A stretch of DNA of 64,000 nt from NCBI RefSeq assembly GCF_009914755.1, contig NC_060925.1; one strand, 5' to 3'. Under the pieces are notes generated by a model. The model searched no databases, had not been told where the DNA came from, and saw only the letters and a program-made list of their open reading frames with translations. Shown here piece by piece: positions 13,992 to 17,610 of this stretch; position 1 is the stretch's first letter; every line of letters begins with the position of its first letter. The position numbers and the translations under genes are program-made. The DNA comes from the human T2T-CHM13v2.0 reference genome, Homo sapiens.

Positions 13992-14133
13992 CTCTAGGTG
14001 ATGTTTCCAAGAGGTTTCTTTTATCTCTTTTGTAATTCTCTTTTATTTCTAAATATGCACATTGCTTTTATAATCAGAGTTTTCTTTCAAAAGCTATATA
14101 ATTCATGTTTCTTTTCAAAAAAACATGTAATGG

Positions 14134-14245
14134 CACTGCTTGGGCGATGGGTGCACCAGAATCTCAGAAATCACCACTAAAGAACTTATCCATGTGACCA
14201 AACACCACCTGTTCCCCGAAAACCTATTGAAATAAAAATAAGAAG
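14134..14245 (+). mobile_element. 5'-truncated L1PB 3' end
   Basis: gggtgcaccagaatctcagaaatcaccactaaagaacttatccatgtgacc...aaataaaaa; flanked by a TSD-like aaaaa(c)atgtaatgg. Confidence 0.8.
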
Positions 14246-14942
14246 ACTGGAAAAAATGTAATGGAAATTAAATCATAATAATAATTATAGCTACTATTGA
14301 TAAAGGGTATCAGAGACTTTATGCACAAGGGCTAGGTCTTCTATGCCCATTATGAAAGAGACAGAAAAAAACAAGTTTTATAGTCAGGTCCTACTTAGTT
14401 TCTTTAAGCCTCTATTTGCTCATCTGTGAACTAGCCTAACAATACCCCCAGAGAATTTCTCTGCAGATTAAATGAGGTTAGGCATATAAAATATTTGGTC
14501 CAGTGCCTAGCACATTATAAGCCCTTGATAATTTGTAGGTGCTATTCCTATTTTTGTTTTGGTTGCCATCATTATCTCCCATATGTTTAACAACCTTTAA
14601 TTATAATATGGATAAGACTATTATATTTATAGAGATAAAATAATTTGTCCAAGTTCACACAGCAAGTGAGTGATAGATCCAGAATTTGTTTCATCCCTGC
14701 CAAGATGCAAAGCCCATGCCTGGTCTCTCTACCACACCATTCTACCTCTACCCCAGGAATAAGGGTTGCAAAGCTTTATTTTCACAGTGAGCACCAAAGT
14801 GTATGGTATCAAGTTATTCATACTCAGCTGCCTTATTTTTGACATTCTCCTCTGGATGAATGTGTGAACATGAACCATATGTCTTAGAGTTAAACTTTCA
14901 GGAAAGAACGTGTGATTTTCAACTTGTGGACAATTTTTAGTT

Positions 14943-15202
14943 TATAGTATCTCTACTCTTCAGTAAGGTCAAATCATAATGACAAGAGGTTGTCACCGGG
15001 CTACAATGCTGGTAAATTACTCAGTGACTTAAAATTCGCTTTTAACTTATATATACCTTAAGCAGAAGACTTAGTATTTTTTCCATCTTTAAAATAAAGG
15101 TTTTTGACTCATATTAGCCTTCACCCATCATTGTTAAATGTCAACGGTCTACCTGTGAATAGTATCATCTTCACTTCAGAAATGCCAAGGCTCTGAAGCT
15201 AT
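14943..15202 (+). repeat. Left arm (donor/template) of a 260-bp inverted repeat
   Basis: Reverse complement of 16427-16686 with a single mismatch (15139 vs 16490). Confidence 0.97.
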
Positions 15203-15504
15203 TTTCTGTTGGTCTTTGGTTCCGAAATTAATCATTCTCAGGCAAACTTGTGAGGTGTATTAAAGGAGGCTCTTTATTTCTTCCAATTGAATCATGAGTT
15301 CATTATTTAATAGTTATACATGCATCCTTAAGGATTAATATAGTATATGGGTTGAGTATCCTTTATACAAAATGCTTGGGACCAGAAGTGTTTCAGATTT
15401 GGGGTTTTTTTTGGGGGGAGGGTGGGATTTTGGATAATTTGCATATACATAGTGAGATATCTTGGGCATAGGACCCAAGTCTAAACATGAAATTTATTTA
15501 TGCT

Positions 15505-15731
15505 TTTTGGATTTCTGGTTTTTGTTTTTTGAGACAGGATCTCACTCTGTCACCCAGGCTGCAGTGCAGTGGAGCAACCATGGCCCACTGAGACCTCCCA
15601 GGCTCAAGCCATCCTCCTACCTCAGTTTCCCAAGTAGCTAGGAGCACAGGCATGCACCACCACACCTGGCTAGTTTTTTTTTGTTTGTTTTGTTTTTTTG
15701 TAGAGACAGGTTTTCCCTATGTTGCCCAGAC
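15505..15731 (-). mobile_element. 5'-truncated AluJ inside Tigger4
   Basis: Right monomer plus part of the left; TSD ttatttatgct (15494-15504) / tcatttatgtt (15732-15742). Confidence 0.88.
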
Positions 15732-15736
15732 TCATT

Positions 15737-16679
15737 TATGTTATATATATATATATATATTATATATATGTTATATATATGTTATATATGTTATATATAT
15801 GTTATATATATGTTATATATATGTTATATATGTAATATATATGTTATGTTATATATGTTATATATATGTTATATATAATATATATGTTATATATACGTTA
15901 TATGTTATATATATGTTATATATAATATATGTTATATATACGTTATATGTTATATATATGTTATATATGTTATATATAATATATGTTATATATACGTTAT
16001 ATGTTATATATATGTTATATAATATATGTTATATATAATATATGTTATATATAATATATGTTATATATTATATATAATATATGTTATATATTATATATAA
16101 TATATGTTATATATTATATATAATATATGTTATATATTATATATAATATATGTTATATATTATATATAATATATGTTATATATATTATATATTATATGTT
16201 ATATATATTATATATAATATGTTATATATATTATATATAACATGTTATATATAATATATATGTTATATATTATATATAATATATGTTATATATATTATAT
16301 ATAATATATGTTATATATAATATATATAACATATGTTATATATAATATATATAATATATATGATATATAATATAAAATATATGTGATATATATTATATAT
16401 AATATATATGTTATATATATATATATATAGCTTCAGAGCCTTGGCATTTCTGAAGTGAAGATGATACTATTCACAGGTAGACCGTTGACTTTTAACAATG
16501 ATGGGTGAAGGCTAATATGAGTCAAAAACCTTTATTTTAAAGATGGAAAAAATACTAAGTCTTCTGCTTAAGGTATATATAAGTTAAAAGCGAATTTTAA
16601 GTCACTGAGTAATTTACCAGCATTGTAGCCCGGTGACAACCTCTTGTCATTATGATTTGACCTTACTGAAGAGTAGAGA

Positions 16680-16730
<51 letters not shown>

Positions 16731-16870
16731 ATATATATTATATATAATATATATGTTATATATATGTTATATATGTTATATATATGTTATATATAATATA
16801 TATGTTATATATAATATATATGTTATATATGTTATATATATATGTTGTGTATATATATACACACACACAC
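15737..16870. repeat. TA-rich VNTR/low-complexity array with a 23-bp higher-order unit (interrupted at 16427-16686)
   Basis: G residues recur every 23 bp from 16060 to 16244; unit GTT+ATATATTATATATAATATAT. Confidence 0.95.
16427..16686 (-). repeat. Right arm (inserted inverted copy) of the 260-bp inverted repeat, embedded in (TA)n
   Basis: atagcttcagagcc...agagatactata equals the reverse complement of 14943-15202; flanked by (TA)9 (16412-16429) and (TA)22 (16683-16726). Confidence 0.97.
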
Positions 16871-17489
16871 ACCTTATACACATAGCCTGAAGGTAATTTT
16901 ATGCAATATTTTAAATAATGTTGTACATGAAACAAGGTTTGTGTACATTGAGCCATGAGAAAGCAAAGATGTCACTATCTCAGCCACCCATGTGGACAAT
17001 CTGCGGTTGTTGGCATCACCATCATTCCTGACTCTGAATTCATATGCTAATGATAAGCAATCATTTTCTTACACTTACTCACACATAGGACTTAATGGTA
17101 AAAAATATAGCATATCATTAATACAGTGAAAAAATAATGTGTTCCGTGTAGCTAAGCAGCACAGTAGCATCACCAGAATCCCTGTACGGGCTGAGCCTTC
17201 CTAATCTGAGTATCTGAAATCTGAAATGTCAAGTGTGGAATTTTCCACTTGTGGCATCATGGCAGCACTCAAAAAGTTTCAGATTTTGTTCATTTCAGAT
17301 TTTCAGATTAGGGATGTTCAACCGGAATATATAATCTTAATTTTATGATCCAGCTCCATTTAACAATTAAAGGTGGTTATGTATCACTCCTTAGTCAACC
17401 TATAATATTTGCAGTTTATGTCAAGTCTACCAAATGCTTGATTTATTTAAGTGGTGCTCATTCATCCTTATTAAAACCCTTATTCAAAG

Positions 17490-17610
17490 TGTTTGAGATG
17501 ATGGATATACTGATTACCCTGATCTATTCACCATAAATTATATGTATCAAAACATCACTATGTATGCCATGAATATGTACAATTATTATTTGTCAGTAAA
17601 AAATAAAATT
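17490..17610 (+). mobile_element. L1MA 3' end fragment
   Basis: gtttgagatgatggatatactgattaccctgat...aatatgtacaattattatttgtcagtaaaaaataaaa; flanks share tattcaaag. Confidence 0.8.

What the first reader, a model, noticed from the sequence alone, without database searches (positions are those of the whole stretch)
14943..16686. 260-bp inverted templated insertion inside a pure (TA)n run: a recent DNA-break repair scar that creates a long inverted repeat
Seen: 16427-16686 is the reverse complement of 14943-15202, a segment I do not recognise as a repeat, at 259/260 identity (only mismatch 15139/16490). It sits between (TA)9 and (TA)22, and both junctions share TA microhomology with the template ends (TATA at 14943-14946, TAT at 15200-15202). 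There is no TSD or poly-A, so it is not retrotransposition. Established: long (TA)n runs extrude cruciforms, stall forks and are cut by MUS81/SLX4; Pol-theta end joining and MMBIR/FoSTeS leave local templated inserts with microhomology. Inference: a break in the TA run was patched by copying the opposite strand ~1.2-1.5 kb upstream. Near identity implies a very young, possibly polymorphic event. It gives a 260-bp stem with a ~1.2-kb loop in DNA and in AK5 pre-mRNA, a potential non-Alu ADAR substrate and a substrate for recurrent inversion of 15203-16426.
Basis: partly seen in the sequence, partly recalled or inferred. Interest (0 to 1): 0.85.

Follow-up and report, generated by a model that had tools for sequence, protein, structure and literature searches.

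The report
Inverted repair copy inside TA repeat
A 260-base piece of an AK5 intron was copied backwards into a TA repeat 1.2 kb away, most likely when that repeat broke or stalled replication; this is a known kind of repair scar, and here it leaves a long, almost perfect hairpin-forming repeat.

Summary
16427-16686 is the reverse complement of 14943-15202 at 259/260, and the only mismatch is 15139/16490. It is the only pair of at least 95% identity and 100 bp in the window. The 260-mer occurs only at these two places in the whole assembly.

The right arm is the derived copy. It splits one TA-rich array that carries the same TGTTATATA units on both sides. That array lies inside an old interspersed repeat whose two halves sit next to each other in 10 of 11 other genomic copies. 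This rules out a TIR transposon.

Both junctions overlap the TA phase, by 3 and 4 nt. Only about 0.1% of random 260-mers do this.

Best reading: a microhomology-primed template switch at a stalled or broken (TA)~29 run. Sequence alone cannot separate a replicative route from Pol-theta fold-back.

This kind of variant is already described: 277 germline inverted duplications with a median of 284 bp, most with 1-15 bp microhomology (PMC12350158).

Age and polymorphism are untestable here; one difference in 260 allows 0.05-21 Myr.

A small hand-picked survey suggests that sequence islands inside TA runs are often local templated copies: 6 of 16, against 2 of 320 controls.

The parts
14943..15202 (+). 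Template (left arm): unique intronic DNA, 65% A+T, unmasked
   Evidence: arm of the inverted repeat; only two copies in the genome. Flanked by unique sequence on both sides. It contains an internal (TA)4 at 15048-15055 that was copied through.
15203..15339 (.). Unique spacer, contiguous with the template; start of the 1224-nt loop
15340..15503 (+). 5' part of an old interspersed repeat with terminal inverted repeats (mariner-type, MARNA/Hsmar2-like; the name is recalled and untested)
   Evidence: 2792 candidate copies in the genome, 40 scored, at 77-82% identity; its end pairs with 17285-17330 as a terminal inverted repeat.
15504..15735 (-). Antisense, 5'-truncated Alu-like SINE nested in the old repeat, with ATTTATG-like target duplication
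   Evidence: Reading. Partly inside NCBI's masked stretch 15589-16436. The family name is recalled and was not tested against a repeat library.
15737..16426 (.). Left part of the degenerate TA-rich array (TGTTATATA units), ending in pure (TA)9 at 16412-16429
   Evidence: TRF. (pure runs); 36 TGTTATATA units here and 0 outside the arrays.
16427..16686 (-). Inverted templated copy (right arm), 259/260 identical to the template. Net non-TA insert is 16430-16682. Junction microhomology: ATA at 16427-16429 and TATA at 16683-16686.
16687..16859 (.). Right part of the same TA-rich array, beginning with the pure (TA)22 run (16683-16726)
   Evidence: 8 TGTTATATA units.
16864..17330 (+). 3' part of the same old interspersed repeat
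   Evidence: in 10 of 11 other copies this part begins 2-22 nt after the 5' part; here the two are about 1360 bp apart.

Best explanation
An old mariner-type repeat in AK5 intron DNA acquired an Alu and grew a TA-rich array with a pure core of about (TA)27-29. A lesion arose in that core, either a fork stalled at a TA hairpin or a cruciform-derived break. It freed a + strand 3' end ending in ...TATA. That end paired by 3 nt with TAT at 15200-15202 on the same (+) strand 1.2 kb behind it. This strand would be the lagging-strand template of a rightward fork, or the end's own resected tail folded back. The end was then extended for about 257 nt, down to TATA at 14943-14946. It returned to the TA run through that 4-nt homology, and the gap was sealed. 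The result is an inverted duplication that splits the run into (TA)9 and (TA)22 and creates a 260-bp inverted repeat with a 1224-nt spacer. What is shown: the copy, its polarity, its uniqueness, and the non-random junction homology. What is inferred: the lesion, the enzymes, and the route. My split is about 55% replicative FoSTeS/MMBIR-type switch and about 45% double-strand break with Pol-theta or Pol-delta fold-back synthesis. In AK5 pre-mRNA (+ strand) the arms should form a 260-bp duplex.
For: Copy and mismatch. The 260-mer has only two copies in the assembly, so it is not a repeat family. Polarity: the halves of the host repeat (window ~15500 and ~16864-16875) lie 2-22 nt apart in 10 of 11 other copies. 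TGTTATATA units occur 36 times left of the insert, 8 times right of it, and 0 times elsewhere in the window. So the right arm entered a pre-existing array. Junction overlaps of 3 and 4 nt occur in 0.10-0.12% of random 260-mers. Literature, passages read: the MMBIR templated-insertion signature is an insertion in inverted orientation near its template, flanked by microhomologies (PMC8421209). Germline inverted duplications: 277 events, median 284 bp, most with 1-15 bp microhomology, replicative origin proposed (PMC12350158). TA repeats extrude cruciforms that are cut by MUS81 or ERCC1-ERCC4; the breaks are repaired by Pol-theta MMEJ, with the TA repeat supplying the microhomology and a tendency to templated short duplications (PMC13645644). 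Four other TA-run islands carry dispersed local copies at 95.8-98.1% identity, three of them inverted. Folding: 258 of 260 arm pairs form in register in the RNA minimum-free-energy structure, and the arm duplex is -465.5 kcal/mol.
Against: No ancestral (empty) allele was seen, because no other human or ape assembly was reachable. The pure TA runs could have changed length since the event. TA on both sides could hide a target-site duplication. A 257-nt tract copied from 1.2 kb away is longer and farther than typical Pol-theta inserts (recalled: mostly under 30 nt) and beyond the 100-bp template distance that MMBSearch uses. An internal (TA)4 in the template was copied through without switching back. 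Read-level support for the assembly was not checked.
Confidence: 0.85

Rival explanations
1. An older inverted duplication by any mechanism landed in ordinary degenerate array sequence, and the pure (TA)9 and (TA)22 runs grew at its edges afterwards. On this reading the TA run is a consequence of the event and not its cause.
For: Pure TA runs mutate fast. The identity of 259/260 allows up to about 21 Myr. Older examples (L030, L034, L044, at 96%) also sit beside pure TA runs.
Against: Both template ends carry TA-phase homology (3 and 4 nt; 0.1% by chance). That implies TA sequence was already at the junctions when copying started and ended.
Confidence: 0.06
2. RNA-templated repair: the broken + strand end annealed to nascent AK5 pre-mRNA, which has the same sequence as the + strand, and a reverse-transcribing polymerase copied it.
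For: The geometry is identical to fold-back on DNA, since the template lies in a transcribed intron on the sense strand. No call tested this.
Against: There is no poly-A and no splicing signature. A local DNA template explains everything. The germline expression of AK5 that this needs was not examined here. Direct-orientation cases such as L030 cannot arise this way.
Confidence: 0.04
3. Assembly artefact: a chimeric or fold-back read in a hard TA-rich region.
For: TA-rich arrays are hard to sequence. Read support was not examined here.
Against: Both junctions lie inside the array, and the array and the host repeat resume correctly on the far side. A simple fold-back chimera would not give a 1.2-kb spacer. 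Similar, more diverged events exist elsewhere.
Confidence: 0.03
4. The two arms are the terminal inverted repeats of one DNA transposon, 14943-16686.
For: The form is 260-nt inverted termini. TA dinucleotides could be read as a Tc1/mariner-type target duplication at both outer edges.
Against: The arm sequence exists only at these two places in 3.1 Gb. The DNA outside the right arm continues the array and the host repeat that begin inside the loop. So the unit did not insert as a whole. Identity of 99.6% is inconsistent with long-dead human DNA transposons (established knowledge).
Confidence: 0.01
5. L1-mediated retro-insertion or twin priming.
For: The abstract of a preprint attributes about 85% of inversions under 2 kbp to L1 twin priming (10.1101/2021.12.20.472354; search listing).
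Against: There is no L1 sequence and no poly-A. The source is a local unspliced intronic segment. Both arms are unmasked and two-copy.
Confidence: 0.01

Closest known systems
Germline inverted-duplication structural variants (Schloissnig et al. 2025, PMC12350158; passages read)
   Same: Inverted copy of nearby sequence called as an insertion. Size of 260 bp against a median of 284 bp. Microhomology in the 1-15 bp range. A replicative origin is proposed.
   Different: Whether this one is polymorphic is unknown. The paper's tables that I could read hold no list of these events. The passages I read draw no link to TA runs.
MMBIR templated insertions (MMB-TI; Osia et al. 2021, PMC8421209; passages read)
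   Same: An insertion in inverted orientation to a nearby template, flanked by microhomologies. Such events are found as germline variants.
   Different: That tool looks for templates within 100 bp and inserts no longer than a read. Here the template is 1.2-1.5 kb away and the insert is about 257 nt.
Pol-theta MMEJ at cruciform-cut TA repeats (PMC13645644; also PMC12972899)
   Same: A TA run as the fragile site. The TA repeat itself supplies the microhomology. Repair tends to add templated duplications.
   Different: That is somatic, ecDNA or yeast data with short duplications. Here it is one long inverted tract in a reference genome, and the enzyme is unknown.
Palindromic AT-rich repeats (PATRRs; recalled)
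   Same: AT-rich, structure-prone DNA associated with breakage.
   Different: PATRRs are near-perfect palindromes with no long spacer. Here the arms are unique 65% A+T sequence separated by 1224 nt.

Membership tests
Templated inverted insertion (MMBIR/FoSTeS-type signature) | The insert is the reverse complement of a nearby template | tested here: met
   259/260 identity, with the template 1224-1483 nt upstream.
Templated inverted insertion (MMBIR/FoSTeS-type signature) | Microhomology at both junctions | tested here: met
   3 nt and 4 nt. 0.10-0.12% of random 260-mers do as well.
Templated inverted insertion (MMBIR/FoSTeS-type signature) | The insert is derived relative to an empty ancestral site | tested here: met
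   Indirect evidence. The host-repeat halves are adjacent in 10 of 11 other copies, and the same array units lie on both sides. No orthologous empty allele was seen.
Germline inverted-duplication SV class (PMC12350158) | Segregates among humans | not testable with these tools
   No other human assembly is held. Readable supplementary tables cover only Fst and mobile-element subsets and have no row at chr1:77.2049-77.2067 Mb.
Pol-theta TMEJ insert | Short templated insert, typically tens of nt (recalled), dependent on POLQ | tested here: inconclusive
   The length of about 257 nt is atypical. Enzyme dependence cannot be read from sequence.
TIR DNA transposon / MITE | A multi-copy family that moves as a unit and splits its target | tested here: not met
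   Two arm copies in 3.1 Gb. The right flank continues sequence that begins inside the loop.
L1-mediated retrocopy / twin priming | Poly-A tail and L1 or spliced mRNA content | tested here: not met
   None. A target-site duplication cannot be assessed because both flanks are TA.
PATRR | Near-perfect AT-rich palindrome with no or a very short spacer | tested here: not met
   The spacer is 1224 nt. The arms are 65% A+T unique sequence.
Known structured RNA family | Match to an Rfam model | tested here: not met
   0 matches at gathering score in 14000-17600.

The most novel reading that the evidence does not exclude
Long pure TA runs may be recurrent germline acceptor sites for kilobase-range local templated insertions in either orientation. 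If so, a sizeable share of the unique 'islands' found inside TA runs would be repair scars. Each scar breaks up a cruciform-prone run, limiting its fragility, while sometimes creating a new long inverted repeat. The AK5 case would be the longest and least diverged of those sampled. It might still segregate in people, giving some carriers a 260-bp perfect intronic dsRNA in a brain-expressed gene.
Probability: 0.4. Interest if true: 0.55.

Novelty: new member of a known kind. Interest (0 to 1): 0.38.

Why it matters
This is a clean natural example in which both the direction of copying and the pre-existing target can be proven from sequence alone, thanks to the split host repeat. It links two literatures, TA-repeat fragility and germline inverted duplications. 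It also creates a non-Alu duplex of 196 + 63 contiguous pairs. That is far above the median of edited human dsRNAs, which is 31 contiguous bp and 84.7% paired (PMC11838218). If polymorphic, it would be a natural test of editing or sensing of a perfect intronic dsRNA, and of inversion between 260-bp arms. By itself it is an expected product of known repair pathways.

Tried and rejected

**Independent copies of the locus.** Exact-pattern scans of genome contigs and viral contigs, looking for stray human copies, found 0 stretches each.

**Naming the host repeat.** Then 0 of 26 stop-free ORF pieces from six other copies matched any Pfam family. The name mariner/MARNA/Hsmar2 therefore rests on recall only. 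The Hsmar2 paper I read prints no sequence I could compare (PMC3770610).

**Population data.** Supplementary tables of PMC12350158 hold 18 rows on chr1:77.0-78.0 Mb and none at this locus. They list only Fst-differentiated and mobile-element variants, and only the first 2.0 of 4.0 million characters were open to the script. The largest supplement could not be read. This is no evidence on polymorphism.

**Structured RNA.** Rfam gave no match.

**Pattern counts.** The (TA)8-gap-(TA)8 pattern is not informative against its control: 656 versus 661 and 426 versus 311.

**Readings rejected.** TIR transposon, L1 twin priming and PATRR (see the membership tests).

**SOS splicing.** Splicing triggered by paired inverted repeats in RNA (PMC12779559) was considered. 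The repeat is intronic, so no effect on the mRNA is expected, and I did not pursue it.

Full report

Yes. The repeat finder lists arms 14943-15202 and 16427-16686, 260 nt, with 1224 nt between them. A direct comparison gives 259/260. The only mismatch is 15139 (T) against 16490 (A after reverse complement), and complementarity ends abruptly at all four edges.

In a self-BLAST of the 64-kb window, only 1 of 56 non-self HSPs reaches 95% identity over at least 100 bp, and it is this pair. The next best is 88.3%, between Alu-like repeats.

A search of the whole assembly (3.1 Gb) finds the 260-mer at exactly these two places (2 candidates, 2 scored). The tool warns that its counts are lower bounds for common words. 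Even so, the segment is not a repeat family, which agrees with it being unmasked in NCBI's file.

The copy is bracketed by pure (TA)9 at 16412-16429 and (TA)22 at 16683-16726.

**2. What surrounds it, and which arm is the copy?**

The TA runs are the core of a degenerate TA-rich array, 15737-16429 and 16683-16859. The unit TGTTATATA occurs 36 times left of the insert, 8 times right of it, and nowhere else in the window. So a single array was split.

The array itself sits inside an old interspersed repeat.
- Window 15330-15503 has 2792 candidate relatives in the genome. 40 were scored, at 77-82% identity.
- I aligned the 11 fetched relatives to the window's 5' part (to ~15500) and 3' part (from ~16864).
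- In 10 of 11, the 3' part begins 2-22 nt after the 5' part. The eleventh (L006) keeps only a distal 3' piece.
- In the window the two parts are about 1360 bp apart.

Everything in between is therefore secondary: an antisense Alu-like SINE at 15504-15735, the array, and the 260-bp copy. The 260-mer is not part of that repeat family.

Three things follow.
- The right arm is the derived copy and the left arm is the template.
- The loop is in the ancestral orientation in this assembly.
- The idea that 14943-16686 is one TIR transposon fails, because the DNA outside the right arm continues what begins inside the loop.

I recall the host repeat as mariner-type (MARNA/Hsmar2-like). Its ends form a terminal inverted repeat. 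However, 0 of 26 ORF pieces from six relatives hit Pfam, so the name is untested.

**3. Junctions**

The insert begins with ATA (16427-16429) and ends with TATA (16683-16686). Both continue the TA phase of the flanking runs and both are also present at the template ends (15200-15202 and 14943-14946).

Among all 260-mers of the window, in both orientations and excluding the arrays, only 0.10% start and end with alternations of at least 3 and at least 4 nt. The figure is 0.12% for 11-20 kb.

The non-TA insert is 253 nt (16430-16682). Removing 16430-16686 restores an in-phase run of about (TA)29.

The template also contains a (TA)4 at 15048-15055 that was copied through. The return to the run was therefore not at the first opportunity.

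**4. Mechanism**

The geometry is simple.
- A + strand 3' end ending in ...TATA inside the run pairs with TAT at 15200-15202 on the + strand itself.
- It is extended leftwards to 14943.
- It re-pairs with the TA run through TATA.

The + strand behind the lesion is single-stranded in two situations. One is as the lagging-strand template of a rightward fork, which gives a FoSTeS/MMBIR-type switch. The other is as the resected tail of a break, which gives fold-back or 'snap-back' synthesis. Sequence cannot tell these apart.

Passages I read support both.
- Osia et al. define the MMBIR templated-insertion signature as an insertion in inverted orientation near its template, with junction microhomology. 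They find such events as germline variants (PMC8421209).
- Schloissnig et al. report 277 inverted duplications with a median length of 284 bp. Most have 1-15 bp microhomology, and the authors suggest a replicative origin (PMC12350158).
- A 2026 study shows TA repeats extruding cruciforms that are cut by ERCC1-ERCC4 or MUS81. The breaks are repaired by Pol-theta MMEJ, the TA repeat supplies the microhomology, and repair tends towards templated duplications (PMC13645644).
- Yeast Flex1 (AT)34 work agrees on fragility (PMC12972899).

I put 0.85 on a microhomology-primed template switch at a lesion in the TA run, split roughly 55:45 between the replicative and break-repair routes. The lesion and the enzymes are inferred.

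**5. Age**

One difference in 260 sites gives 2-4 Myr as a point estimate. The Poisson 95% range is 0.05-21 Myr for 0.5-1.0e-9 per site per year.

The clock is weak in both directions. The mismatch could be a copying error by an error-prone polymerase (recalled). Gene conversion between the arms could have erased differences.

No other human or ape sequence was reachable.
- Earlier notes were closed.
- Scans for stray copies found nothing.
- The readable supplementary tables hold only Fst and mobile-element subsets, with no row at this locus.

'Young and polymorphic' is therefore possible but not shown.

**6. Consequences**

The + strand is the AK5 sense strand.
- Folding 14943-16686 as RNA pairs 258 of 260 arm positions in register. 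The MFE is -896.5 kcal/mol and the arm duplex is -465.5 kcal/mol.
- With DNA parameters, 259 pair in register.
- The duplex has uninterrupted stretches of 196 and 63 bp.

For comparison, a genome-wide dsRNA survey gives medians for edited human dsRNAs of 297 bp length, 31 contiguous bp, 84.7% paired and a ~2-kb loop. It counts only 4,597 edited non-repetitive dsRNAs (PMC11838218).

Structurally this is a strong ADAR substrate, but editing was not tested. Rfam finds no known RNA here. A 1.2-kb spacer makes cruciform extrusion in duplex DNA unlikely (established knowledge). Inversion by recombination between 260-bp arms is possible but was not seen.

**7. A small survey**

The pattern (TA)8-V-N{100,400}-B-(TA)8 has 426 matches per strand in the genome. 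Only chr1 and part of chr2 are listed.

How the sample was made:
- I picked 13 places from that list and 2.
- I chose by eye those where complex sequence abuts both TA runs, before knowing whether they had copies.
- I fetched ~4.7 kb around each.
- I left out compound microsatellites and obvious Alu cases.

Results, with the index case included:
- 6 of 16 islands have a non-overlapping local copy of at least 70 bp at 95% identity or more.
- Length-matched random segments of the same loci gave 2 of 320 (Fisher p = 1e-7).

| Locus | Place | Copy | Identity | Template |
|---|---|---|---|---|
| Window (index) | chr1:77.21 Mb | inverted, 253 bp | 99.6% | 1.2 kb upstream |
| L030 | chr1:48.12 Mb | direct, 164 bp | 96.3% | 1.08 kb downstream; two copies genome-wide |
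| L034 | chr2:97.63 Mb | inverted, 72 bp | 95.8% | ~1.6 kb downstream |
| L042 | chr2:13.85 Mb | inverted, 105 bp | 98.1% | 1.75 kb upstream; two copies genome-wide |
| L044 | chr1:191.17 Mb | inverted, 149 bp | 96.0% | 124 bp upstream; two full-length copies |
| L041 | chr2:3.89 Mb | tandem duplication | 97.8% | adjacent |

L044 also carries a direct 145-bp copy at 89.9% from about 0.6 kb downstream.

The other ten:
- L033 looks like a small processed pseudogene.
- L036 is single-copy.
- L038 has an 83-bp direct copy at 89%.
- The remaining seven show nothing clear.

The sample is small, hand-picked and seeded by the index case. It suggests, but does not establish, that TA runs are recurrent acceptors of local templated inserts.

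**8. Verdict**

This is a real, cleanly interpretable inverted templated insertion in a TA run. It is a new member of a known class of structural variant. Its age, population status, editing and inversion potential remain open.

Noticed in passing
L030:2262-2425 and L030:3506-3669 (G000 C1:48123661-48123824 and 48124905-48125068): A 164-bp direct-orientation copy (96.3%) of DNA 1.08 kb downstream sits between two TA runs. There are only two copies in the genome.
   Followed up: yes
L042:2207-2311 (G000 C2:13849506-13849610) against C2:13847656-13847760: A 105-bp inverted copy (98.1%) of DNA 1.75 kb upstream, abutting a TA run. There are only two copies in the genome.
   Followed up: yes
L044:2280-2428 (G000 C1:191171379-191171527): A complex island between TA runs. 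It holds a 149-bp inverted copy (96%) of DNA 124 bp upstream, plus a 145-bp direct copy (89.9%) of DNA about 0.6 kb downstream, which looks like a multi-template event. Its last 53 nt belong to a high-copy repeat.
   Followed up: partly
L034:2150-2600 (G000 C2:97.630 Mb): A TA-rich array carrying a 72-bp inverted copy (95.8%) of DNA about 1.6 kb downstream. The whole array is also bracketed by ~76-bp inverted arms (86.8%), giving a palindrome-like layout.
   Followed up: partly
L033:2249-2581 (G000 C1:225151948-225152280): A 333-bp mRNA-like island between TA runs, with an ATG-led reading frame and AATAAA near its end. It is probably a small processed pseudogene; I recall it as NDUFA3-like, which was not tested. 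It shows a different route by which sequence enters TA runs.
   Followed up: no
window 15340-17330: Nested history: an old TIR-bearing interspersed repeat (at least 2792 candidate relatives) was hit by an antisense truncated Alu-like SINE at 15504-15735. It then grew a ~1.1-kb TA-rich array from its own ...TATGTT..ATATAC... sequence.
   Followed up: partly
window ~32234 (CHM13 chr1:77222234): Supplementary Table 18 of PMC12350158 lists a polymorphic 238-bp truncated L1 insertion at this position, absent from CHM13.
   Followed up: no
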